Origin: a phage
Sequence record: PZ495249.1
DNA: 64,000 nucleotides
Reading direction: 5' to 3' (one strand)
Below are positions 49,948-56,553 of this stretch, one piece after another. The notes beneath the pieces are model-generated. The model worked only from the letters and a program-made list of their open reading frames with translations. It was not told the DNA's origin and made no database searches. Made by a program: the position numbers and the translations under genes. Positions within the stretch are counted from its first letter, which is position 1; every line of letters starts with the position of its first letter.

Positions 49948-50247
49948 TTAGATTGAGATTTTAAGACGTTCAGTACCAGCAGACTCAGGCGTTTCCTCGT
50001 CGGCTTCTTCCATTGCTTCGTAATGTTCTTCCAGCCATCCTTCGACTTGCTCTTTGACAGTCTTCGCTGCTTGGAAGCGCAGATTCTTGGGTGCTTGATC
50101 GTCCATAACAAGTTCGACGATATATTTCATAGCAGCCAGATATTTATCTGCGAACAGTTCCTTTACTTGTGCCTGGGCAGCGTCCATCGCGTAGATTTGC
50201 TGCATCTCGGCTGTTGGTCTACCACGACCACGTTTTAGTTTTGGCAT
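49948..50247 (-). CDS. hypothetical small DNA-binding protein (possible terminase small subunit)
   Basis: 99 aa; basic N-terminus MPKLKRGRGRP, acidic C-terminus. Confidence 0.3.
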   Translation of the reverse strand: MPKLKRGRGRPTAEMQQIYAMDAAQAQVKELFADKYLAAMKYIVELVMDDQAPKNLRFQAAKTVKEQVEGWLEEHYEAMEEADEETPESAGTERLKISI

Positions 50248-50321
50248 AATTGCACCTCCTAATAATTCATTTTAACATGAAATTATTAGTTTGTAAAGTA
50301 ATTTGTTTTGGACAAAAGAAA

Positions 50322-50338
50322 ACCCGCCGGAGCGGGTT
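50322..50338 (-). terminator. intrinsic terminator at the 3' end of the tRNA array
   Basis: Minus sense AACCCGC-TCCG-GCGGGTT followed by TTCTTTTGT. Confidence 0.55.
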
Positions 50339-50449
50339 ATCAGATTTGCGTTTAGAAGTCGCAACCCTTCACTCTTAGAAGGAACCAGGCAAGGTCTTCG
50401 AAGATACCGCTGGAGCGGAATTTGGTATTCAGACTTGCGTCTTCAATAT

Positions 50450-50524
50450 TGGTTGTAGCAGATGGAATCGAACCATCATCAATCGGTTATCAGCCGAACG
50501 TATTAGCCGTTATACTATGCCACA
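50450..50524 (-). tRNA. tRNA-Ile (anticodon GAT)
   Basis: 7 bp acceptor with encoded CCA, loop CTGATAA, T arm GATGG-TTCGATT-CCATC; hand-folded. Confidence 0.55.
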
Positions 50525-50530
50525 ATTGTT

Positions 50531-50613
50531 TGGCATCCAGGTGAGGAATCTAACCCCTTGAAACTGGTTTTGGAGGCCAGCAACGGGAACACCCATTTTT
50601 AATCTACCCAGAT
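50531..50613 (-). tRNA. tRNA-like element, possibly Trp (CCA) with aberrant D region
   Basis: Acceptor pairs with two G/U wobbles; loop CTCCAAA; T loop TTAGATT lacks C56; D region about 7 nt too long. Confidence 0.25.
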
Positions 50614-50619
50614 ATTGTT

Positions 50620-50695
50620 TGGAGGCGGGAGCCGGAATCGAACCGACCTGCGACAAGCATATGAAACTTGTGAGTTCCCAGAACTCTATCCCGCA
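50620..50695 (-). tRNA. tRNA-Met (anticodon CAT) with U1/C72 mismatch
   Basis: Loop TTCATAT, T arm GTCGG-TTCGATT-CCGGC, CCA encoded. Confidence 0.5.
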
Positions 50696-50776
50696 CTTTT
50701 GGTTGATAGTAAGAGAATCAAACTCTTCTCACAACGCCGTATGAAAGCGTCCGAAACATCAGCTTCACACTATCAA

Positions 50777-51040
50777 TTAAACACGATGGATTATTTTAAC
50801 TGTCTCACCCTTATCATTCATAAGGTAGGCACTTTCATTCCTATGAATAAAGTCCGTAGAGTTGCCACTAATGACACTTGCAATAACACCATCCAGCTTA
50901 TCATAACCTTCAAAATGATATTGGATGTGTATATTTCCATCAAGTTCTATATAATGTTCTTCTTCATCTACCTCGTAAGGTACTGAGTCATAAATTTTTG
51001 TCCCTTTGGGGAACTTGCGAACTATTTTCAATGTATACAT
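50777..51040 (-). CDS. hypothetical protein inside the tRNA array
   Basis: 87 aa; RBS gaaggaaa. Confidence 0.4.
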   Translation of the reverse strand: MYTLKIVRKFPKGTKIYDSVPYEVDEEEHYIELDGNIHIQYHFEGYDKLDGVIASVISGNSTDFIHRNESAYLMNDKGETVKIIHRV

Positions 51041-51124
51041 AGTATTTCCTTCGTAGTGTTTATATTAGTAATATGCCGTCCCAAGCCGAACGGCGATTAG
51101 TGTTTTAGCTTGGCATTGATAATA

Positions 51125-51199
51125 TGGTACTTCCTGGAGGAATCGAACCACCGACGCTCACCTTGTAAGGATGACGTTCTACCATTGAACTAAGGAAGT
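51125..51199 (-). tRNA. tRNA-Val (anticodon TAC)
   Basis: D arm GTTC-AATGGTA-GAAC, loop CTTACAA, T loop TTCGATT. Confidence 0.6.
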
Positions 51200-51272
51200 A
51201 TGGCGGGGATTTTCCGCACTGTCTATCGCGATATGGACTCGGACAGTGTTCTCGGCTAAATACCCCATTGTT

Positions 51273-51359
51273 TGGTACATCAGGTCAGACTCGAACTGAC
51301 ACGCCCTCACGAGCACTGGAACCTAAATCCAGGGCGTCTACCAATTTCGCCACTGATGC
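51273..51359 (-). tRNA. tRNA-Leu (anticodon TAG), long variable arm
   Basis: Loop TTTAGGT, 15 nt variable arm, T loop TTCGAGT. Confidence 0.6.
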
Positions 51360-51367
51360 ATTTAATT

Positions 51368-51444
51368 TGGTGGAGAAGTGGAGAATCGAACTCCATACTC
51401 GAAGGTGCAAACCTCGTGTTTTAACCGAATATTACTACATCCCC
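51368..51444 (-). tRNA. tRNA-Ala (anticodon TGC)
   Basis: Loop TTTGCAC; G3/U70 wobble in the acceptor stem (Ala identity element); T arm TGGAG-TTCGATT-CTCCA. Confidence 0.6.
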
Positions 51445-51506
51445 AATTTGTATACACTACACAGAAGATAGGTCTGATTGCCTCGGCAGTTGCCGTAGTG
51501 TTTATC

Positions 51507-51582
51507 TGGTACGGATGGAAGGAGTCGAACCTCCGACGCAGGGCTTCGTAGACCCTCGTTCTATCCACTGAACTACACCCGT
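51507..51582 (-). tRNA. tRNA-Arg (anticodon ACG)
   Basis: D arm GTTC-AGTGGATA-GAAC, loop CTACGAA, T arm GGAGG-TTCGACT-CCTTC. Confidence 0.7.
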
Positions 51583-51588
51583 ATTGTT

Positions 51589-51663
51589 TGGTGCAGAGTG
51601 TTGGTAACGATCCAACCTGTGTGGCTTTTCAGACCACCACTAATCCATCTCAGTTAACTCTGC
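51589..51663 (-). tRNA. tRNA-Phe (anticodon GAA)
   Basis: Loop CTGAAAA; T loop ATCGTTA (A54/U58 covariation). Confidence 0.6.
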
Positions 51664-51669
51664 ATAATC

Positions 51670-51745
51670 TGGTCAGTGAGAGAGGACTCGAACCTCCAAC
51701 AGCTACGCCCCAAACGTAACACTCTACCACTTGAGCTACTCACTG
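51670..51745 (-). tRNA. tRNA-Pro (anticodon TGG)
   Basis: C1-G72 first pair typical of bacterial tRNA-Pro; loop TTTGGGG. Confidence 0.6.
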
Positions 51746-51752
51746 ATAAATC

Positions 51753-51827
51753 TGGCTACAGGTCTTGGGATCGAACCAAGTCATACGGTGGTCAAAGCAC
51801 CGTGCCTTCCCATTTGGCTACCCTGTA
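51753..51827 (-). tRNA. tRNA-Gln (anticodon TTG)
   Basis: U1-A72 and 3 bp D stem GCC/GGC as in E. coli tRNA-Gln; loop CTTTGAC. Confidence 0.6.
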
Positions 51828-51834
51828 ATTAAAT

Positions 51835-51922
51835 TGGTATCGTGGACGAGATTCGAACTCGCAAGGGATTACTCCCGCCAGATTGAAAGTCTGGTTACTT
51901 AGGCCGTTTTGTATACCACGAT
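51835..51922 (-). tRNA. long-variable-arm (type II) tRNA with anticodon loop CTTTCAA (anticodon TTC); isotype ambiguous
   Basis: Perfect acceptor ATCGTGG/CCACGAT, anticodon stem CCAGA/TCTGG, 15 nt variable arm with GGGA-GTAA-TCCC stem, T arm GCGAG-TTCGAAT-CTCGT. Confidence 0.45.
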
Positions 51923-52025
51923 ATAAAATTTCTTAAAGAGAACTGCTGAAAGTTGAAGGAGAAAACCATGAGCGAAAAGAGAAAAGGTTTCCAGCAGTTC
52001 CATTTAAAAAATCTCGTAGGGTTGT

Positions 52026-52104
52026 TGGCGCGGGTGACAGGATTCGAACCTGCGACGAACTGGGTGGAAGCCAGACACTCTACCAAACTGAGTTACACAC
52101 GCGC
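52026..52104 (-). tRNA. tRNA-Gly (anticodon TCC)
   Basis: Loop CTTCCAC, T arm GCAGG-TTCGAAT-CCTGT; D region slightly long. Confidence 0.5.
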
Positions 52105-52170
52105 TGATTAACAACTCTATAATACTACTCTACTACATTTTAGCCCTCGTTGTCAAGGGCTTTTGACAAA

Positions 52171-52497
52171 TTATTTCAGAAGTTTTTCCAAACCTTGCTT
52201 CATCGCATACTCTATGAAGAAGTTTAGTTCACCGATTAACTCTGGTTCCCACTGGTCTTCCAAGCCATAACATGAACAATGTCCACCATGAACTTCATAA
52301 AACTTATTGTCACGCTTATCGTAGAAGTAAACATCGGATGATCCAGTGTAGCACTCATACGTATAATCTGCGTACAGGATGATAATATCATCTTCTGTTA
52401 GATCAACATGATAATCACTCATCACTTGATCGAAGTCTGAAAAGTCGTTATCATACACGTCAACATGCAGATACTTTTCTAATTCTTGTTTATCCAT
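52171..52497 (-). CDS. hypothetical acidic protein inside the tRNA array
   Basis: 108 aa; strong RBS aagaggaggaaac; HGGHCSCYG motif. Confidence 0.5.
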   Translation of the reverse strand: MDKQELEKYLHVDVYDNDFSDFDQVMSDYHVDLTEDDIIILYADYTYECYTGSSDVYFYDKRDNKFYEVHGGHCSCYGLEDQWEPELIGELNFFIEYAMKQGLEKLLK

Positions 52498-52737
52498 GTT
52501 TCCTCCTCTTTAGAATATGTGGGGCAGTGACGGATACCCCTTTGGGTGACAAACCCTACGTTCGGAAGCTCGGTCAGACTGACACAAAACACGAAGTCAA
52601 ATGTCCTTCCTCCCTGCTGTCGATTGGAGAGAGCCGATCCCCTCTGAACTTCATTTAAGCGCGATACCACTTAGGGCTGTCTAACACTTTCCTGAACTTA
52701 CCAATCCACCTAATCCCAGTCACGGTTTCGGATTTTC

Positions 52738-52813
52738 TGGTGCTCCCACACTGAATCGAACAGTGATTTGCGGGTTACAAAGCCGCAGTAATAGGCCATT
52801 ATACGATAGGAGC
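52738..52813 (-). tRNA. tRNA-Thr (anticodon TGT)
   Basis: T arm CACTG-TTCGATT-CAGTG, loop TTTGTAA closed by a C/C mismatch. Confidence 0.55.
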
Positions 52814-52819
52814 AAATTT

Positions 52820-52895
52820 TGGCGGGCAATATTGGATTCGAACCAATTACCATTCGGTTAACAGCCGACCGCACATCCGTATGTGCTTATCACCC
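52820..52895 (-). tRNA. tRNA-Asn (anticodon GTT)
   Basis: Loop CTGTTAA, T arm ATTGG-TTCGAAT-CCAAT, acceptor with two G/U pairs. Confidence 0.55.
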
Positions 52896-52973
52896 ATGTT
52901 CTTCGTTAAGAGTAGGCGCGTTTCATCAGTCGCCTCGTGTTATTTTCTCCTGTTTCCAGGCTCCCTTTAGTGC

Positions 52974-53096
52974 TCGCGAGGGAGGGATTCGAACCACTCA
53001 CCTCTGCCAGAGCCAACCAGATCTTTCGGGTAATTACTCCGTCCAACCATTTGATTAACCTGCTGGCAGCGTCCATCGCCCTTAGACTGCCTCGCG
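52974..53096 (-). ncRNA. tRNA-like element, 123 nt, perfect 7 bp acceptor but weak T stem (pseudo-tRNA or tRNA with insertion)
   Basis: Acceptor CGCGAGG/CCTCGCG, T loop TTCGAAT present, about 35 nt more than a type II tRNA. Confidence 0.2.
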
Positions 53097-53136
53097 TCTG
53101 TCAATTCAGATGCCACTAAAGCTCTCTCAACTAATT

Positions 53137-53220
53137 TGGTGTGGGTAGATGGATTCGAACCACCGCGCCTTTCGGATCAGATTTACAGTCTGGTGCATTC
53201 AGCCACTCTGCCATACCCAC
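53137..53220 (-). tRNA. tRNA-Tyr (anticodon GTA), long variable arm
   Basis: Loop CTGTAAA, T arm GGTGG-TTCGAAT-CCATC, CCA encoded. Confidence 0.7.
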
Positions 53221-53226
53221 ATTGTT

Positions 53227-53303
53227 TGGTGCGCCGGAAAGGATTCGAACCTTTAGTCCTCTCATTAAAAGTGAGATGCCTTATCCAGTTTAGCTACCGA
53301 CGC
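53227..53303 (-). tRNA. tRNA-Lys (anticodon TTT)
   Basis: D arm GCTA-AACTGGATAA, loop CTTTTAA, T arm AAAGG-TTCGAAT-CCTTT. Confidence 0.7.
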
Positions 53304-53443
53304 ATAAATTTTCTTTAGGATAGGAAGTGTGGGGCACTTCACTATTTATATCGGTGATGGTTGCCGCCATCTGCCGAAAGTTTACTCTATCTAAGTAAGA
53401 GTCGAAACGCTACACGAATAGTATTTCTATCATAAAGAAAACT

Positions 53444-53529
53444 TGGCGGAAGAGGGGAGGGTTGAACTCCCACGCCCTTTCGGACGGCAGTTTAGCAAAC
53501 TGCTATGGCTACCATTTCATCACTCTTCC
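53444..53529 (-). tRNA. tRNA-Ser (anticodon GCT), long variable arm
   Basis: Loop TTGCTAA, 14 nt variable arm, T arm GGGAG-TTCAACC-CTCCC. Confidence 0.65.
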
Positions 53530-53537
53530 ATTTTGTT

Positions 53538-53614
53538 TGGCAGTCGCGACGGGTTACGATCCCGCATTCTCTCCCGTGACAGGGGAGTACCATTACCAAG
53601 CCAGCCCCGCGACT
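53538..53614 (-). tRNA. tRNA-Asp (anticodon GTC)
   Basis: Anticodon arm CTCCC-CTGTCAC-GGGAG; T loop ATCGTAA. Confidence 0.65.
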
Positions 53615-53621
53615 ATTAATT

Positions 53622-53711
53622 TGGAGGAAGATAATGGAGTCGAACCATCACCGTATCACTACAATGGGCCAGGGTTCAAATCTGGTTGCGTACCACTACG
53701 CCCTATCTTCC
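53622..53711 (-). tRNA. tRNA-Ser (anticodon TGA), long variable arm
   Basis: Acceptor GGAAGAT/ATCTTCC, loop TTTGAAC, long variable arm. Confidence 0.55.
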
Positions 53712-53775
53712 AATCTATACTTCTTAGTCTATCATACTTTTCAATCGGTTGTCAATAGCTTTTTGAAAATTATTT

Positions 53776-53853
53776 TGGTCGGGGAGATAGGACTCGAACC
53801 TACATTTCCTCCATTACGCTATACGGCTTAGAAGACCGCCACGGTACACCCCG
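53776..53853 (-). tRNA. tRNA-like element, possibly Arg (TCT), with aberrant D region
   Basis: T arm GTAGG-TTCGAGT-CCTAT and arm GCGGT-CTTCTAA-GCCGT present, but no canonical D arm and 19 nt between anticodon and T arms. Confidence 0.3.
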
Positions 53854-53881
53854 ATCTCTTAGTGCTGACTATAACATAACT

Positions 53882-54052
53882 TATTCGTTACTGTCAAGCT
53901 CTTTTTTAATTTCTTTTCTTGCTTTCTGACGTTCAGTGGCTTTACACACTTCCTGCCAAGATTCGTACTCGTCACCTTTACGGTAGCCACGGCTACGACA
54001 AAGGGAGCAGAGACAACCTTCTTGACGATATTTCAAACCATGAGGTTTCATA
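53882..54052 (-). CDS. hypothetical small Cys-rich protein (not in ORF track, 56 aa)
   Basis: ATG after strong RBS aaggaggatatATG; MKPHGLKYRQEGCLCSLCRSRGYRKGDEYESWQEVCK. Confidence 0.4.
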
Positions 54053-54064
54053 TATCCTCCTTAA

Positions 54065-54139
54065 TTGGTGAGCATTACCAGATTCGAACTGGTGTCTTTC
54101 GGGTTTAGAATCCTACGCTTTACCGCTAAGCTAAATGCC
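54065..54139 (-). tRNA. tRNA with anticodon CTA (candidate amber suppressor); low-confidence fold
   Basis: Acceptor GGGCATT/AATGCTC, D arm GCTT-AGCGGTA-AAGC, T arm ACCAG-TTCGAAT-CTGGT, loop TTCTAAA; anticodon stem has two mismatches. Confidence 0.35.
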
Positions 54140-54371
54140 CTTCGTAAATGTCACGACTATCAGGATCGTGATACAATTCTGCAATTTCTTTACTTAAAGT
54201 AGCTCTCAGTATAATCCCTTTGTGCGAAACAATCAAGTAGATTTTCGTTTCACTTACATCTCCAGGGGCTAAGAGTTTACCTCTTACAATCCGCAAACGT
54301 TCTGCTGAATACCCTTCTTCGAGATCAGCCAACATATCTGCCAACGATTTAGAGAAAGTTAACCGATGCAA
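54126..54371 (-). CDS. hypothetical protein (TTG start, weak)
   Basis: 81 aa ORF with weak RBS; 3' end overlaps the CTA tRNA. Confidence 0.25.
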   Translation of the reverse strand: MHRLTFSKSLADMLADLEEGYSAERLRIVRGKLLAPGDVSETKIYLIVSHKGIILRATLSKEIAELYHDPDSRDIYEGHLA

Positions 54372-55459
54372 GGTATTACTTTCACGGTTTACAATTCCCC
54401 AGATACGATCATCCAGTTTGCAACTTCCTGACTCACAATTAGTCTATGACATTTTCGTTCTCCTGTTTGTTAATAAAACATATAAAGAAGGACAATGATC
54501 AGGTGACGTTTGCCAACGCCCTGCCGAAGTTCCGAAGATTGCAAGTCTTCGCTTGAACCGCATTTCATCAGGAGTAACGTATGATCAGTACGTTTTTCCG
54601 AAATGCTCACACCCCACGGTGCTGACAGTTTTAACACCAATCAATGCCTTTCTTTATATGTTCTGTCGATGGTGGAGGACGGTACGGGATTTTAACCCGT
54701 CTAAACTGGTTTGCAATCAGCCACATAGACACTCTGACAACCGTCCCATCGAAAAGCCAGTCTGTTCCTGGCTGTCACCACAGTTTTAACATTCTGTGGC
54801 TTGAACGTAGGAGCTATTCGATGCTGGCATTCTCCCGTAGCTCTGCCTTTATAGGGGTATGAACCCGTAGGGCGCACCTTATTGTTCCGTTCAAGGGATC
54901 ATGTTGAATGTTAACCTCTGCTTTTCCTTTAGGTTATTCGGAGAGGTACAACGATTGGGTTAGCGAAGCCCAAACACCTCCAGAGCAAACAACAATCTCC
55001 AAAACTGGTGTGACTGGTGGGGCATGATCCCACATCATCTCCTTCACAGGGAGGAACGTTAACCAGCTTACGCTCACAGTCACCATTGTTTGTAGTGTCT
55101 CCAAGGCTTCCTATTCCATCCTAAGATGATCCACCCCTTCAACTAACGCGCTACATCCCTACGAAGAATGAACGTCATTCTCATCGTCTGAAATCTTGTT
55201 CAGAGCATACCACTGCGGAGATTAACCCGCTTCTCATCCTACGTGGTCGGTAGTAGTTGTCAATCAAACAACTCGTAAAATATATTCTCGTAAGAACACA
55301 TATTGCGAGAGTTTGGCACCAGGAGGAGGAGTCGAACACTCCTAATCAGGTCATGACTCCTGACTATCTCAAACCAAACACTGTTGTGTCGGCTATTGCA
55401 TAACAGCGAGCGCTCACTCCTATGCAGACCTTCACCAGTGTCGAGATCCTGGTATTGTT

Positions 55460-55550
55460 TGGTACGGGTGACGAGATTCGAACTCGTAAGATCATCAAAG
55501 ACCTGGGGGATTTTAAGTCCCATGTGTACTGCCAATACCACCACACCCGC
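55460..55550 (-). tRNA. tRNA-Leu (anticodon TAA), long variable arm
   Basis: Anticodon arm GGGA-CTTAAAA-TCCC as in E. coli Leu-UAA; T arm ACGAG-TTCGAAT-CTCGT; 91 nt. Confidence 0.7.
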
Positions 55551-55558
55551 TTTATTTA

Positions 55559-55741
55559 TTATCGACGAAGAATATCAATCACTTCGCCAAGCAACGCACT
55601 GTACGCCGCATCTTCGAGAATATCCTTCTGGAGTTCACTGTCAATCCCTGTTACGCTCTCGACAGTATCTGTTACCGGAGATACAACATCACGAGCAACG
55701 CTGGTAACATCATCAAGCACTTCACCGATAAATCCGAACAT
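55559..55741 (-). CDS. hypothetical small acidic protein
   Basis: Start set at ATG 55741 after RBS aaagaggagaa. Confidence 0.4.
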   Translation of the reverse strand: MFGFIGEVLDDVTSVARDVVSPVTDTVESVTGIDSELQKDILEDAAYSALLGEVIDILRR

Positions 55742-55760
55742 AATATTCTCCTCTTTAAGT

Positions 55761-55838
55761 TGGTGGTTCCACCTGGTTTCGAACCTGGACACTCTCGGTT
55801 ATGAGCCGAGTGCTCTGACCTACTTGAGCTATGGAACC
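55761..55838 (-). tRNA. tRNA with anticodon CAT (elongator Met or Ile2)
   Basis: Perfect acceptor GGTTCCA/TGGAACC, anticodon arm CTCGG-CTCATAA-CCGAG, T loop TTCGAAA. Confidence 0.6.
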
Positions 55839-55896
55839 AATATGCCTACCTTAACACAGATAGGCTTTCATTGTCAATACCTTATCGTAAAATATT

Positions 55897-56553
55897 TTAA
55901 TCTACGACAAACGGTGTAGTTGGAACAGAGAAGTTAGCATTATATCTGGCAACTTTACTGATGCGGATCTGATCAATATCACCAAACATTGTAGCTTCAC
56001 CAAAGCCGATTCGAGCTATGGCTGTAGCCAGTCCCCAACCGCCAGAAGCAAATCCAGCGCCAGTTACAGCCGTCGAACCATTGACATACAACTTAGTTAC
56101 ACCGTCCTTGTTAACCAAGGCAATGTGTGTCCAGTTAGTAAGAGGCCAAAAGTTACCATTGAAAGTTAATCCGGCAGATTGATCTCTCAAAGTAATGGTT
56201 CCACCATTGTTTCGCAAATAACTCTGTGTATTGTTACCAGCAAAGTATAACCACCAAGATCCAGCAATACTGTTGTTTCTTGACCACCATTCAATTGTGT
56301 AGTCTTGATTAGCAGCAAAAACCAAATCTGCTCTTTCGGATGCAATCATTTCGAAATAGTTCGGTGAACTTGTGCAAGTAAACATCTTATTGTTAAACTT
56401 TGCCACACTCGAAGTCGTTACCGTTGGTACTTTCGAAAAGGCTCGCGTTGGCTTTGCCTGGTCTACACCACCTTTATCTGCCTGTAACAGTAATAGTGTA
56501 CTGTTTGGCTGAGGTGTTGGTGGCTTGCCACCTGCTAACATTGTTTCTAACAT
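55897..56553 (-). CDS. LamG/concanavalin-like domain protein, paralog of 15929..17080
   Basis: 218 aa; N-terminal MLETMLAGGKP shared with the other LamG gene; Trp/Asn/Gly-rich lectin-like sequence. Confidence 0.5.
   Translation of the reverse strand: MLETMLAGGKPPTPQPNSTLLLLQADKGGVDQAKPTRAFSKVPTVTTSSVAKFNNKMFTCTSSPNYFEMIASERADLVFAANQDYTIEWWSRNNSIAGSWWLYFAGNNTQSYLRNNGGTITLRDQSAGLTFNGNFWPLTNWTHIALVNKDGVTKLYVNGSTAVTGAGFASGGWGLATAIARIGFGEATMFGDIDQIRISKVARYNANFSVPTTPFVVD

What the first reader, a model, noticed from the sequence alone, without database searches (positions are those of the whole stretch)
50450..55838. Large minus-strand tRNA array with protein genes interspersed and unusual T loops
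About 19 tRNAs fold canonically by hand (Ile, Met, Val, Leu x2, Ala, Arg, Phe, Pro, Gln, Gly, Thr, Asn, Tyr, Lys, Ser x2, Asp, CAT) and several more elements are tRNA-like but aberrant. Phe and Asp have A54 with U58 in the T loop, a compensatory swap. Small protein genes with strong RBSs sit between tRNAs. His, Cys, Glu and Trp were not confidently found.
Basis: partly seen in the sequence, partly recalled or inferred. Interest (0 to 1): 0.4.

Follow-up and report, generated by a model that had tools for sequence, protein, structure and literature searches.

The report
Phage tRNA cluster with odd tRNAs
This is the transfer-RNA gene cluster of a large bacterial virus related to phage phi92, an ordinary kind of feature, but several of its tRNAs have unusual shapes that are conserved in related viruses and for which I found no published description.

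Summary
ARAGORN finds 23 minus-strand tRNA genes exactly at 50450-55838, against 0 in 30 shuffles. Rfam adds tRNA-Cys and a D-arm-less Arg(UCU)-like element. Comparison with relatives adds a non-canonical tRNA-Trp. That makes 26 tRNA or tRNA-like genes covering all 20 amino acids, plus a CUA (amber) tRNA, and all encode CCA.

The A54/U58 T-loop swap is real in Phe and Asp, and also in His. It behaves as covariation: orthologues carry T54/A58 on near-identical T stems.

Five or six small conserved phage ORFs lie between the tRNAs, with sigma70-like promoters and one terminal terminator.

The cluster is syntenic with those of Stephanstirmvirinae phages (phi92, Citrobacter Tr1, Klebsiella 'Sichuanvirus'), so it is a new member of a known kind. 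Its U34 tRNAs match A-ending codons that the 43.5% GC phage over-uses. There is no TAG recoding.

The less ordinary content:
- a covariation-supported long-variable-arm tRNA with the Glu anticodon UUC, found almost only in phage arrays;
- the remodelled tRNA-Trp;
- a 140-nt tRNA-like RNA;
- slot-by-slot mosaicism of the tRNA alleles.

The parts
55761..55838 (-). tRNA with anticodon CAT, elongator-Met-like or Ile2-like; first gene of the array
   Evidence: ARAGORN. Rfam 58.7 bits. 99% identical to the Citrobacter Tr1 allele. The positional homologue in phage FBKp34 is annotated tRNA-Ile2-CAT.
55559..55741 (-). small ORF, 60 aa, with an AAGAGGAG ribosome-binding site
   Evidence: No PHROG or Pfam family and no homologue in relatives.
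55460..55550 (-). tRNA-Leu(TAA)
   Evidence: ARAGORN. Rfam 45.2 bits.
55314..55453 (-). E1: a 140-nt tRNA-like RNA. It has the acceptor-like stem ACCAGGA/TCCTGGT followed by G and CCA, a T-arm-like hairpin and a long extra arm.
   Evidence: MFE -57 kcal/mol, z = -4.1, 0 of 200 shuffles fold as well. 98.7% identical in FKP3 and phi1_175008 and 91.7% in FBKp34. Against FBKp34 there are 3 compensatory double changes. It occupies a tRNA slot with the same 3' flank. No Rfam hit.
55006..55083 (-). tRNA-His(GTG) with T loop ATCATGC (A54/U58) and discriminator A73
   Evidence: Rfam 44.6 bits. The Tr1 orthologue has TTCGAGT.
54673..54746 (-). tRNA-Cys(GCA) with T loop TTAAAAT (A56) and no GG in the D loop
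   Evidence: Rfam 42.1 bits. Missed by ARAGORN. Fold. Orthologues in the Klebsiella phages are called Cys.
54126..54371 (-). conserved small ORF of up to 81 aa whose TAG stop lies inside the CTA tRNA gene
   Evidence: 88-89% protein identity over its full length in 3 Klebsiella phages. Stop context.
54066..54140 (-). tRNA with anticodon CTA (amber-suppressor type). It has normal D and T loops and a weak anticodon stem (A28.G42, A31.C39).
   Evidence: ARAGORN labels it 'Pyl'. Rfam tRNA 60.2 bits. Found in only 4 Klebsiella phage records of 50,697.
53881..54051 (-). small ORF, 56 aa, with a TAAGGAGG ribosome-binding site
   Evidence: phrog_14783, E = 3.5e-16. 80-93% identical in FKP3 and phi1_175008.
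53776..53853 (-). Arg(TCT)-like element. It has acceptor, anticodon and T arms plus CCA, but the D arm is reduced to 4 nt and 16 nt are inserted in the variable region. Possibly degenerate.
   Evidence: Rfam 33.7 bits, with alignment. Not called by ARAGORN. The strongest promoter-like site, 53897-53868, lies directly upstream.
53622..53711 (-). tRNA-Ser(TGA) with discriminator U73
   Evidence: ARAGORN. Rfam gives only tRNA-Sec at 31.9 bits, below threshold. A T5-like phage carries a similar 90-nt Ser(TGA) with the same T arm and discriminator U73.
53538..53614 (-). tRNA-Asp(GTC) with T loop ATCGTAA (A54/U58)
   Evidence: Missed by Rfam. Tr1 has TTCGATC on the same T stem. T5-like Asp has TTCAAAT.
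53444..53529 (-). tRNA-Ser(GCT)
   Evidence: 45.7 bits. 100% identical to the FKP3 allele.
53227..53303 (-). tRNA-Lys(TTT)
   Evidence: 65.5 bits.
53137..53220 (-). tRNA-Tyr(GTA)
   Evidence: 58.7 bits.
52820..52895 (-). tRNA-Asn(GTT), ordinary 76-nt form; relatives carry an 85-nt long-arm form in this slot
   Evidence: (48.4 bits). At most 62% identical to any relative. No exact match in IMG/VR.
52738..52813 (-). tRNA-Thr(TGT)
   Evidence: 100% identical to phi1_175008 but 57% to the other Klebsiella phages.
52171..52497 (-). ORF, 108 aa, with an AAGAGGAGG ribosome-binding site
   Evidence: phrog_8792, E = 2.2e-33. Homologues in Tr1 and phi92.
52026..52102 (-). tRNA-Gly(TCC)
   Evidence: 58.2 bits.
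51923..52025 (-). conserved long hairpin between Gly and Glu
   Evidence: z = -5.2. Conserved in all relatives including phi92 and phiWec181.
51835..51922 (-). tRNA with the Glu anticodon TTC and class II architecture: 3-bp D stem, 4-bp variable arm GGGA/TCCC, A73
   Evidence: Rfam 48.8 bits. Family covariation.
51753..51827 (-). tRNA-Gln(TTG)
   Evidence: 46 bits.
51670..51745 (-). tRNA-Pro(TGG)
   Evidence: 54 bits.
51589..51663 (-). tRNA-Phe(GAA) with T loop ATCGTTA (A54/U58)
   Evidence: 43.4 bits. phi92 and Tr1 share the swap. The Klebsiella phages have CTCGATA and T5-like has TTCGATA.
51507..51582 (-). tRNA-Arg(ACG)
   Evidence: 59.2 bits.
51368..51444 (-). tRNA-Ala(TGC)
   Evidence: 45 bits.
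51273..51359 (-). tRNA-Leu(TAG)
   Evidence: 50.5 bits.
51201..51265 (-). E2: a 65-nt element with an acceptor-like stem and a GCCA 3' end
   Evidence: 95-98% identical in 3 Klebsiella phages. z = -2.2. Too little variation to test the structure.
51125..51199 (-). tRNA-Val(TAC)
   Evidence: 62.4 bits.
50777..51040 (-). ORF, 87 aa
   Evidence: phrog_8729, E = 2.8e-33. Homologues in the Klebsiella phages, phi92 and phiWec181.
50700..50775 (-). atypical tRNA with anticodon CAT. T loop TTTGATT (U56); 6-nt D loop CTGATG, read as G18 A19.
   Evidence: ARAGORN. No Rfam hit. Conserved in the Klebsiella phages.
50620..50695 (-). initiator-like tRNA with anticodon CAT. Positions 1-72 are unpaired (U1.C72) and the discriminator is U73.
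   Evidence: Rfam 33 bits. It resembles the tRNA annotated fMet in a T5-like phage. It lacks the three G-C pairs of bacterial initiators.
50531..50613 (-). non-canonical tRNA-Trp. Anticodon loop CUCCAAA, G73, CCA. The D arm is replaced by a single-stranded linker plus a short hairpin. T loop TTAGATT (A56).
   Evidence: Model R2 scores it 80.3 bits. Family covariation. Missed by ARAGORN; Rfam gives only tRNA-Sec at 26.8 bits.
50450..50524 (-). tRNA-Ile(GAT), last gene of the array
   Evidence: 63.7 bits.
50321..50338 (-). intrinsic-terminator-like hairpin followed by a T run, downstream of the array
53868..53897 (-). sigma70-like promoter, TTGACA-18-TATAGT with TG, 11 of 12 matches
   Evidence: Further promoter-like sites at 53755-53726, 52156-52127 and 55263-55236.

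Best explanation
This is the tRNA gene cluster of a virulent myovirus of the Stephanstirmvirinae type, whose relatives include phi92, Citrobacter Tr1 and the Klebsiella 'Sichuanvirus' group.

About 5.4 kb on the minus strand carry 26 tRNA or tRNA-like genes. They cover all 20 amino acids and include one CUA tRNA. Every gene encodes its CCA end. Most neighbours are only 4-8 nt apart, and five or six small conserved phage ORFs lie between some of them.

The cluster is probably transcribed by host RNA polymerase from several sigma70-like promoters as polycistronic precursors. Transcription would end at one intrinsic terminator downstream of tRNA-Ile, and the host's tRNA-processing enzymes would cut out the tRNAs (inferred).

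Its main job is most likely to give the AT-rich phage (43.5% GC) its own decoders. In every four- and six-codon box the phage tRNA has U34, and the matching A-ending codon is over-used by the phage. Phage translation would then not depend on scarce or depleted host tRNAs.

Several members are architectural variants that compensatory changes have kept foldable:
- the 54-58 tertiary pair is swapped in Phe, Asp and His;
- the 19-56 elbow pair is changed in Cys, Trp and one CAT tRNA;
- the Glu-anticodon tRNA carries an extra helix in its variable region;
- the Trp tRNA has a remodelled D arm.
That these are functional tRNAs is supported by covariation. That the changes were selected to make the tRNAs differ from host tRNAs, so as to escape host tRNA-directed nucleases or modification enzymes, is inference.
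For: Identity and significance. There are 23 ARAGORN calls against 0 in 30 shuffles. Twenty-two elements reach the Rfam tRNA threshold.

Synteny. The order of isotypes is the same as in phi1_175008, KP2025, KP13-26 and FKP3, with partial matches in Tr1, phi92 and phiWec181. The flanks are also the same: NAPRTase and PRPP-synthetase genes upstream, spanin, terminase and portal genes downstream.

Codon match. All ten A-ending codons read by phage U34 tRNAs are enriched relative to a 50-kb E. coli sample. Examples are GGA 0.21 against 0.07, ACA 0.34 against 0.12, CCA 0.41 against 0.18 and AGA 0.15 against 0.05.

Expression signals. There are 21 promoter-like sites against 10.9 +/- 3.1 expected, including TTGACA-18-TATAGT, and a terminator-like hairpin lies downstream of Ile.

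Functional constraint on the odd tRNAs:
- The 54/58 swap covaries.
- The class II UUC tRNA family has 95.3% of cells paired against 72.4% in shuffles (0 of 500 shuffles as high). All 4 variable-arm pairs show changes on both sides.
- The Trp family has 87.8% paired against 62.8% (0 of 500), and all 5 D-hairpin pairs show double changes.
- In the Trp family the window's hairpin loop UGUU goes with A56. Relatives have loop UGG with C56.

The small ORFs belong to conserved phage families.
Against: No expression, processing or aminoacylation data exist.

The host is unknown. The codon comparison used only 50 kb of E. coli K-12, and that stretch includes highly expressed ribosomal genes.

The phage tRNA set reads about the same fraction of codons in the E. 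coli sample (75%) as in the phage (77%), so the enrichment is per codon rather than global.

The Lys anticodon loop matches my recollection of the E. coli tRNA-Lys loop. That gives no sign of the anticodon-loop evasion described for other phages (PMC10264068).

The Arg(TCT)-like element may be a decaying gene. Its fold is no better than shuffles (z = +0.37) and it has no orthologue with the same architecture.

The role of the CUA tRNA is unexplained.
Confidence: 0.85

Rival explanations
1. The cluster exists mainly as a counter-defence. It would replace host tRNAs destroyed by tRNA-targeting immune nucleases, such as PrrC, PARIS AriB, retron PtuAB, Schlafen and OLD. On this view the structural oddities (A54/U58, altered elbow, extra arm, remodelled D arm) are the features that make the phage copies resistant. 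This overlaps with the best explanation rather than excluding it.
For: Phage tRNAs rescuing infection from tRNA-cleaving systems is documented (PMC10264068, PMC11555353, PMC11464382, PMC13056530). The array is strongly mosaic. A given isotype slot holds alleles that are 100% identical to one relative and only 57-62% identical to another, as expected under rapid allele replacement. The unusual architectures recur in unrelated phage contigs and are nearly absent from cellular genomes.
Against: No known defence nuclease has been tested against these variants. I found no paper linking T-loop, variable-arm or D-arm changes to evasion. The codon-usage match needs no defence argument.
Confidence: 0.35
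2. The CUA tRNA marks a stop-codon-recoding phage, in which TAG is read as an amino acid in late genes as in crAss-like and Lak phages.
For: A well-scoring tRNA with anticodon CTA (60.2 bits) is present. It is conserved at 96-99% in three 'Sichuanvirus' genomes and one IMG/VR contig.
Against: No long ORF in the 64 kb is interrupted by an in-frame TAG. TAG ends 5 of 67 genes, about what I recall for E. coli (roughly 7-8%; not computed here). Readthrough extensions after TAG are no shorter than after TAA or TGA. The structural genes are intact under the standard code. The tRNA's anticodon stem has only 3 standard pairs out of 5.
Confidence: 0.03
3. The atypical elements are decaying pseudogenes or chance folds without function. 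These are the class II Glu tRNA, the Trp-like and Arg-like elements, the CAT tRNA at 50700, E1 and E2.
For: Public annotations mark some homologues as pseudo: phi92 Phe and Ser(TGA), and KP2025 'tRNA-Pseudo-TGA'. Rfam or ARAGORN miss several of them. The Arg-like element has no D arm and no structural z-score.
Against: Compensatory covariation across divergent phages supports the Glu family, the Trp family and E1. All keep intact acceptor stems and encoded CCA ends. Without Glu and Trp the set would lack two amino acids.
Confidence: 0.1
4. The long-arm tRNA with anticodon UUC is not a Glu acceptor. Because of its class II shape and A73 it would be charged by LeuRS, TyrRS or SerRS, giving deliberate Glu-codon mistranslation. 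Nematode nev-tRNAs and allo-tRNAs (PMC5389517) are analogues.
For: It has class II architecture and A73 in all 19 family members. In at least 9 phage loci an ordinary 72-77-nt Glu(UUC) tRNA sits beside it.
Against: In the window and its close relatives it is the only tRNA with a Glu anticodon, and the phage uses GAA/GAG normally. Most family members have a Glu-type D arm with U13.G22. Ordinary Glu tRNAs in the same loci mostly share A73 and the same 1-72 pair types. Other class I isotypes also occur in long-arm form, including Asn with G73, so the arm looks like an add-on rather than an identity switch.
Confidence: 0.07

Closest known systems
tRNA gene clusters of Stephanstirmvirinae phages: the Klebsiella 'Sichuanvirus' group (phi1_175008, KP13-26, KP2025, FKP3), Citrobacter Tr1, phi92, phiWec181 and FBKp34
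   Same: The genomic position is the same, between the NAPRTase/PRPP-synthetase genes and the spanin/terminase genes. Strand and isotype order match: Met-Leu-His-Cys-CUA-Arg-Ser-Asp-Ser-Lys-Tyr-Asn-Thr-Gly-Glu-Gln-Pro-Phe-Arg-Ala-Leu-Val-Met-Met-(Trp)-Ile. The interspersed ORF families are shared. So are the oddities: A54/U58 in Asp and His, the class II Glu tRNA, the CUA tRNA, the Trp-like element and E1.
   Different: Only 46% of the region aligns, at about 87% identity, and the window's structural genes are only about 75% identical to any known phage. The alleles are mosaic, ranging from 57% to 100% identity per slot. The window has an ordinary Asn where relatives have the long-arm form. 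It has a degenerate Arg(TCT)-like element where relatives have a normal tRNA. It lacks the DUF2828/DUF7788 gene that sits in the Klebsiella phage arrays. The published description of the group says only '18 tRNA genes' (PMC11726925).
tRNA region of T5-like phages (Demerecviridae)
   Same: Many CCA-encoding tRNA genes are interspersed with small ORFs. The Asp tRNA is about 92% identical over positions 6-68, and the Ser(TGA) tRNA has the same length, T arm and U73. An initiator-like CAT tRNA with unpaired 1-72 and U73 is also shared.
   Different: It belongs to an unrelated phage family. All 23 T5-like tRNAs examined have canonical T54/A58 T loops, Glu is an ordinary 77-nt tRNA and Trp is canonical.
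Phage T4 tRNA region with the small stable RNAs RNAC and RNAD
   Same: Non-tRNA small RNAs are transcribed from within a phage tRNA cluster and their roles are unknown (PMC3014915). E1 and E2 sit in tRNA slots with tRNA-like ends.
   Different: No sequence similarity was tested or is expected. Whether E1 and E2 accumulate as stable RNAs is unknown.
Suppressor tRNAs of stop-codon-recoding phages (crAss-like, Lak; bioRxiv 10.1101/2021.08.26.457843, PMC10879173)
   Same: A phage-encoded tRNA with anticodon CUA.
   Different: There are no in-frame TAG codons and no TAG avoidance in the 64-kb window, and its genes read normally under the standard code.
Long-variable-arm tRNAs with non-class-II anticodons: allo-tRNAs (PMC5389517) and nematode nev-tRNAs (from memory)
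   Same: A long variable arm sits on a tRNA whose anticodon belongs to a class I amino acid.
   Different: The phage Glu tRNA has the normal 7/5 acceptor/T-stem arrangement, not 8/4 or 9/3. It carries the Glu-type U13.G22 in most members and shares A73 with ordinary phage Glu tRNAs. There is no evidence of mischarging.

Membership tests
tRNA (Rfam RF00005; cloverleaf) | Covariance-model score at or above the 29-bit gathering threshold | tested here: met
   22 elements score 33-65.5 bits. Not met by Asp 53538-53614, the CAT tRNA at 50700-50775, Ser(TGA) and the Trp-like element; ARAGORN or the custom model supports those.
tRNA (Rfam RF00005; cloverleaf) | Seven-bp acceptor stem, discriminator base and 3' CCA | tested here: met
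   All 23 ARAGORN genes, plus Cys, the Trp-like and Arg-like elements, E1 and E2, end in NCCA after a 6-7-bp stem.
tRNA (Rfam RF00005; cloverleaf) | Canonical T loop with the T54-A58 reverse-Hoogsteen pair and the G19-C56 elbow pair (PMC5485724) | tested here: not met
   Met by 19 of the 23 ARAGORN tRNAs. Phe, Asp and His have A54/U58. The CAT tRNA at 50700 has U56. Cys and the Trp-like element have A56, with matching D-loop changes read by eye.
Stephanstirmvirinae tRNA cluster | Same isotype order and same flanking genes as in phi92 and the 'Sichuanvirus' phages | tested here: met
Stop-codon recoding system (TAG reassigned) | Suppressor tRNA with anticodon CUA | tested here: met
   54066-54140.
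Stop-codon recoding system (TAG reassigned) | In-frame TAG codons in conserved genes; genes fragmented under the standard code | tested here: not met
   None in 64 kb. The long ORFs are intact.
tRNA-Pyl (ARAGORN's label for the CTA tRNA) | Small D loop lacking G18G19, 3-nt variable loop, no TΨC consensus, 6-bp anticodon stem (features recalled from memory) | tested here: not met
   D loop AGCGGTA contains GG, the variable loop has 5 nt, the T loop is TTCGAAT and the anticodon stem is a weak 5-bp stem. The label only reflects the anticodon.
Class II (long-variable-arm) tRNA | A base-paired extra arm between the anticodon and T arms | tested here: met
   51835-51922 has GGGA/TCCC. In 19 family members all 4 arm pairs show changes on both sides.
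Class II (long-variable-arm) tRNA | In bacteria the isotype is Leu, Ser, Tyr or Sec | tested here: not met
   The anticodon UUC (Glu) is invariant in the family.
tRNA-Glu (E. coli GluRS identity set, from memory) | U34 U35 C36 A37; U13.G22 with A46 and no residue 47; G1-C72 and U2-A71 | tested here: inconclusive
   The anticodon loop CUUUCAA is kept. U13.G22 is present in 11 of 19 family members but is A.A in the window. Pair 1-72 is A-U and 2-71 is U-A in the window. The region around position 47 is replaced by the arm. Charging cannot be tested with these tools.
Bacterial initiator tRNA-fMet | No Watson-Crick pair at 1-72 | tested here: met
   50620-50695 has U1.C72.
Bacterial initiator tRNA-fMet | Three consecutive G-C pairs at the bottom of the anticodon stem (from memory) | tested here: not met
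   The anticodon stem is ACAAGT/GCTTGT.
tRNA-Trp (E. coli TrpRS identity, from memory) | Anticodon CCA, G73, A1-U72 | tested here: met
   50531-50613 has loop CUCCAAA, G73 and A1-U72. In the family, A-U occurs at 1-72 in 8 of 10 members. The canonical D arm is absent.

The most novel reading that the evidence does not exclude
Phage tRNA arrays, this one included, may carry a set of phage-specific tRNA architectures that remain functional decoders. These are a Glu tRNA (and, in other phages, Asn, Gln, Asp, Val, Thr, Cys, Met, Pro and Ala tRNAs) with an added base-paired variable arm; a Trp tRNA whose D arm is replaced by a linker plus a triloop hairpin; and tRNAs with the 54-58 tertiary pair inverted. 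On this reading the changes were selected because they alter the surfaces that host tRNA-directed nucleases, modification enzymes or quality-control factors read. That would be immune evasion at the level of tRNA shape, not only of the anticodon loop. The slot-by-slot allele mosaicism of the array would be the footprint of that arms race.
Probability: 0.3. Interest if true: 0.7.

Novelty: new member of a known kind. Interest (0 to 1): 0.4.

Why it matters
As a tRNA cluster it is ordinary. Large virulent phages of enterobacteria commonly carry such clusters, and this one is syntenic with published relatives.

Its value lies in the details. It holds a full 20-amino-acid decoder set in which at least six members depart from the universal tRNA core yet are held together by compensatory changes. 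That offers natural experiments on which tertiary contacts of tRNA can be rewired.

It also bears on the long-standing question of why phages carry tRNAs. The codon-usage match is clear here. In addition, the architectural variants and the allele mosaicism give concrete, testable candidates for evasion of tRNA-targeting immunity.

The long-arm Glu tRNA family is almost confined to phage arrays: 20 IMG/VR contigs of 7-476 kb against 3 MAG contigs among 185,579 species genomes. I found no published description of it in the searches I made.

Tried and rejected
1. Stop-codon recoding by the CUA tRNA. Rejected for this window: there are no in-frame TAG codons, TAG usage is ordinary, and backup stops after TAG are no closer than after TAA or TGA.

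2. 'tRNA-Pyl', ARAGORN's label for the CTA tRNA. Rejected, because its D and T loops are canonical.

3. Origin of the CUA tRNA. Alignment against all ARAGORN-called tRNAs in the fetched loci gave no parent above 71% identity outside its own small group.

4. Literature. Searches for A54/U58 in tRNA T loops, for long-arm class I tRNAs in phages, and for T-loop-based evasion found nothing relevant. Absence from this library is not proof of novelty.

5. The Rfam permissive scan of 50000-56500 gave no family for E1, E2 or the other spacers.

6. Several spacers fold no better than shuffles and were not pursued: 52498-52737, 54380-54520, 54880-55005 and 55084-55320. An element at about 52960-53125 has a T-arm-like motif and a possible acceptor pairing but no CCA and only z = -2.4. 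It was left unresolved.

7. A DUF2828/Ro60-like gene, which might have suggested Y-RNA-like partners for the tRNA-like RNAs, lies in the relatives' arrays but is absent from this window.

8. An exact-match search for the window's unusual Asn allele in IMG/VR found nothing.

9. A MAFFT alignment of the Trp-like family put the window's D hairpin out of register. It was realigned with a covariance model before pairs were counted, so those counts lean towards the model's structure.

Full report
**Observation**

ARAGORN on the whole window finds 23 tRNA genes. Thirty dinucleotide-preserving shuffles of 50200-56200 gave no call at all.

The Rfam tRNA model scores 22 elements at or above its 29-bit threshold. 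Two of these ARAGORN misses: Cys(GCA) at 54676-54746 (42.1 bits) and an Arg(TCT)-like element at 53779-53853 (33.7 bits). Rfam in turn misses Asp and the CAT tRNA at 50700-50775, and it sees Ser(TGA) only as a sub-threshold tRNA-Sec.

ARAGORN adds Glu(TTC), His(GTG), a CTA tRNA and a third CAT tRNA. Every gene encodes its 3' CCA, and most neighbours are separated by only 4-8 nt.

**The four 'missing' amino acids are present, each in an atypical form**

- His has an A54/U58 T loop and A73.
- Cys has A56 in the T loop and no GG in the D loop.
- Glu is an 88-nt tRNA with a 3-bp D stem and a base-paired variable arm.
- Trp lies in the 95-nt Met-Ile spacer at 50531-50613. It has a 7-bp acceptor stem, G73-CCA and the anticodon loop CUCCAAA. 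In place of a D arm it has a single-stranded A/U-rich linker and a short hairpin.

The same Trp element sits in the same spacer of phi1_175008, KP2025/KP13-26/FKP3, Citrobacter Tr1 and phi92. It also occurs in IMG/VR contigs.

I realigned ten distinct members with a covariance model, so the counts lean towards the model's structure. In that alignment 87.8% of cells are paired against 62.8% in shuffles (0 of 500 as high). All five D-hairpin pairs show changes on both sides, and slid controls reach only 39-59% paired.

The hairpin loop is UGG in relatives, whose T loop has C56. In the window the loop is UGUU and the T loop has A56. This is as if the 19-56 elbow pair had changed from G-C to U-A. 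It supports an L-shaped fold.

**T loops**

T loops read from the ARAGORN structures are ATCGTTA for Phe, ATCGTAA for Asp and ATCATGC for His. The other 20 are TTCRANN-type. T54-A58 is the conserved reverse-Hoogsteen pair of the T loop (PMC5485724).

The swap behaves as covariation:
- Citrobacter Tr1 has Asp TTCGATC on the same T stem and His TTCGAGT on a near-identical one.
- T5-like phages have Asp, Phe and His with canonical loops, although their Asp is about 92% identical over positions 6-68 of the tRNA.
It is C/A in 4, G/C in 2, A/A in 2 and T/T in 1.
- Fisher's exact test gives p = 3e-29.

That sample is biased and is not corrected for relatedness. I found no paper describing A54/U58.

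**What the cluster is**

The region aligns best with Klebsiella phages phi1_175008, KP13-26, KP2025 and FKP3, at about 87% identity over 46% of the region. These form the proposed genus 'Sichuanvirus' (PMC11726925).

The isotype order is the same there. It is partly the same in Citrobacter Tr1, phi92, phiWec181 and FBKp34, all Stephanstirmvirinae.

The flanks also match. NAPRTase and PRPP-synthetase genes lie upstream, and spanin, terminase large subunit and portal genes lie downstream. The window's structural genes are only about 75% identical to any phage in the collection. It is therefore a new lineage carrying a known kind of cluster.

**Interspersed genes and signals**

- ORFs 50777-51040, 52171-52497 and 53881-54051 match phrog_8729, phrog_8792 and phrog_14783.
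- ORF 54126-54371 is 88-89% identical at protein level in three Klebsiella phages. It ends at a TAG that lies inside the CTA tRNA gene.
- ORF 55559-55741 has a strong ribosome-binding site but no homologue.
- Promoter-like sites are about twice as frequent as in shuffles: 21 against 10.9 +/- 3.1. The best one, TTGACA-18-TATAGT, lies directly upstream of the Arg-like element.
- A good terminator-like hairpin lies downstream of tRNA-Ile.

**Function**

The window is 43.5% GC. In every four- or six-codon box the phage tRNA has U34, and the cognate A-ending codon is enriched relative to an E. coli sample. This holds for all ten codons:

| Codon | Phage | E. coli sample |
|---|---|---|
| GCA | 0.37 | 0.23 |
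| GGA | 0.21 | 0.07 |
| CTA | 0.10 | 0.03 |
| TTA | 0.17 | 0.11 |
| CCA | 0.41 | 0.18 |
| CAA | 0.55 | 0.33 |
| AGA | 0.15 | 0.05 |
| ACA | 0.34 | 0.12 |
| TCA | 0.19 | 0.11 |
| GTA | 0.29 | 0.21 |

They support codon supply as the basic role. The caveats are that the true host is unknown and the E. coli sample is only 50 kb.

The counter-defence role shown for other phage tRNAs is compatible but untested here (PMC10264068, PMC11555353, PMC11464382, PMC13056530).

**The CUA tRNA**

It scores 60.2 bits and has normal D and T loops, so it is not a tRNA-Pyl. It occurs in only four Klebsiella phage records of 50,697, plus one IMG/VR contig.

The window shows no recoding:
- TAA ends 51 genes, TGA 11 and TAG 5.
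- No long ORF is split by a TAG.
- Extensions after TAG (0-22 codons) are no shorter than after TAA or TGA.

Its anticodon stem has only three standard pairs out of five. Its role is unknown.

**The long-arm Glu tRNA**

Homologues occur in the Klebsiella phages, in Tr1 and in a 642-kb uncultured phage. A pattern scan found 20 IMG/VR contigs of 7-476 kb. ARAGORN-91-nt Glu(TTC) tRNAs in 19 of them.

In 19 distinct sequences aligned to a covariance model:
- 95.3% of cells are paired against 72.4% in shuffles (0 of 500 as high);
- the covariation score is 0.669 against 0.207;
- slid controls reach 33-44% paired;
- all four variable-arm pairs show changes on both sides.

A73 is universal in the family, and most members have a Glu-type D arm with U13.G22. 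In at least nine loci an ordinary 72-77-nt Glu(TTC) tRNA sits next to the long-arm one. Those ordinary Glu tRNAs mostly share A73 and the same 1-72 pair types. I therefore read the long-arm form as a Glu acceptor with an added arm, not as a mischarging tRNA, but only biochemistry can settle this.

The same scan of 185,579 species genomes found three hits. All are MAG contigs, and each hit lies inside a dense phage-style tRNA array.

Long-arm versions of other class I isotypes occur in the same loci. Of 448 class I-isotype tRNAs, 44 are long: Glu 20, Asn 6, Gln 4, and others. Among them is the 85-nt Asn(GTT) of phi92, Tr1 and the Klebsiella phages, which the window has replaced with an ordinary 76-nt Asn.

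**Other elements**

E1 (55314-55453) follows Leu(TAA) after the usual AACAAT spacer.
- It has a perfect 7-bp acceptor-like stem, G and CCA, and a T-arm-like hairpin.
- Its MFE is -57 kcal/mol (z = -4.1).
- It is 98.7% identical in FKP3 and phi1_175008.
- Against the 91.7% identical copy in FBKp34 it shows three compensatory double changes, three pair-preserving single changes and two breaks.
- In KP2025 the same 3' flank follows the Leu(TAA) tRNA itself, so E1 occupies a tRNA-like slot.

The nearest precedent is T4's RNAC and RNAD, small RNAs of unknown role from its tRNA region (PMC3014915).

E2 (51201-51265) is a 65-nt stem with a GCCA end and is 95-98% conserved.

The Arg(TCT)-like element keeps its acceptor, anticodon and T arms but has lost its D arm, and it has no orthologue of the same design. 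It may be degenerate.

**Mosaicism**

Per-slot identities to relatives range from 100% (His to KP2025, Ser(GCT) to FKP3, Thr to phi1_175008) and 99% (the first CAT tRNA to Tr1) down to 57-62%. Examples of the low end are Thr to the other Klebsiella phages and Asn to all relatives. Some spacers are 98% identical where the neighbouring tRNAs are not. The array evolves by replacing individual cassettes while keeping their order.

**Verdict**

As a system it is a new member of a well-known kind.

The undescribed features that I consider worth a specialist's attention are:
- the inverted 54-58 pair in three tRNAs;
- the phage-restricted long-arm Glu tRNA family;
- the remodelled Trp tRNA;
- the tRNA-like E1 RNA;
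- the orphan CUA tRNA.

The E. coli reference tRNA sequences used, and the synthetase identity rules quoted here, come from my memory and should be treated as leads.

Noticed in passing
window 51835-51922; loci L001-L006, L011-L030, L058-L060: A long-variable-arm tRNA with the Glu anticodon UUC forms a covariation-supported family almost confined to phage tRNA arrays. It often sits beside an ordinary Glu(UUC) tRNA. Long-arm forms of Asn, Gln, Asp, Val, Thr, Cys, Met, Pro, Ala, Ile and Gly tRNAs occur in the same phage loci.
   Followed up: yes
window 50531-50613; L001 1585-1653, L002 1339-1418, L003 6851-6930, L007 5028-5107, L017, L041, L049, L015, L018: A non-canonical tRNA-Trp family has its D arm replaced by a linker plus a triloop hairpin. 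ARAGORN and Rfam miss it. The phi92 annotation skips locus tag t016 between Met (t015) and Ile (t017), the interval where the element lies.
   Followed up: yes
window 55314-55453; L057 5001-5144: E1 is a 140-nt tRNA-like RNA with an acceptor-like stem and CCA, occupying a tRNA slot. It shows three compensatory changes against phage FBKp34. Its function is unknown.
   Followed up: partly
window 51201-51265: E2 is a 65-nt element with an acceptor-like stem and GCCA, 95-98% identical in three Klebsiella phages. That is higher than the identity of the flanking tRNAs.
   Followed up: partly
window 51923-52025: A long imperfect hairpin (z = -5.2) lies between Gly and Glu. It is conserved in all relatives, including phi92 and phiWec181. 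It could be a processing site or another signal. A 34-codon ORF overlaps it but has no ribosome-binding site.
   Followed up: partly
window 53304-53443: The Ser-Lys spacer folds into a multi-branched structure closed by a 10-bp stem (z = -4.45). Its core is partly conserved in phi92, Tr1 and phiWec181.
   Followed up: no
window 52960-53125: An element has a GGTTCGAATCC T-arm-like motif and a possible acceptor pairing CGCGAGG/CCTCGCG, but about 45 nt of extra sequence and no CCA. It may be a disrupted tRNA. Only the sequence 3' of it is conserved in relatives.
   Followed up: no
window 50450-55838 compared with L001-L008: Slot-by-slot mosaicism. Alleles in the same isotype slot are 100% identical to one relative and about 60% identical to another, while gene order is kept.
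   Followed up: partly
window 54126-54140: A conserved 81-codon ORF runs 15 nt into the CUA tRNA gene and stops at a TAG inside it. Amber readthrough would add one residue before a TAA.
   Followed up: partly
L001 5214-6644 (also in KP2025 and KP13-26); absent from the window: The relatives' tRNA arrays contain a 476-aa DUF2828/DUF7788 protein with a weak Ro60 vWA hit, flanked by about 700 nt of unannotated sequence. This recalls Ro60/Y-RNA modules with tRNA-like RNAs.
   Followed up: partly
L021 and L025 Phe(GAA); L008 and L039: Other 54/58 combinations occur in phage tRNAs: G54/C58 in two Phe tRNAs, and A54/A58 (the eukaryotic-initiator-like combination, from memory) in a CAT tRNA of phiWec181 and in an Asp tRNA.
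   Followed up: no
window 55006-55084: tRNA-His has a G at position -1 in the gene but A73 instead of the C73 I recall as the bacterial norm. The -1:73 pair would therefore be G.A.
   Followed up: no
window 25000-49999: The structural module is only about 75% identical at DNA level to the nearest phages (phiWec181, phAPEC8 and others). The tRNA array is closest to Klebsiella phages, so the window comes from an undescribed lineage with a mixed ancestry signal.
   Followed up: partly
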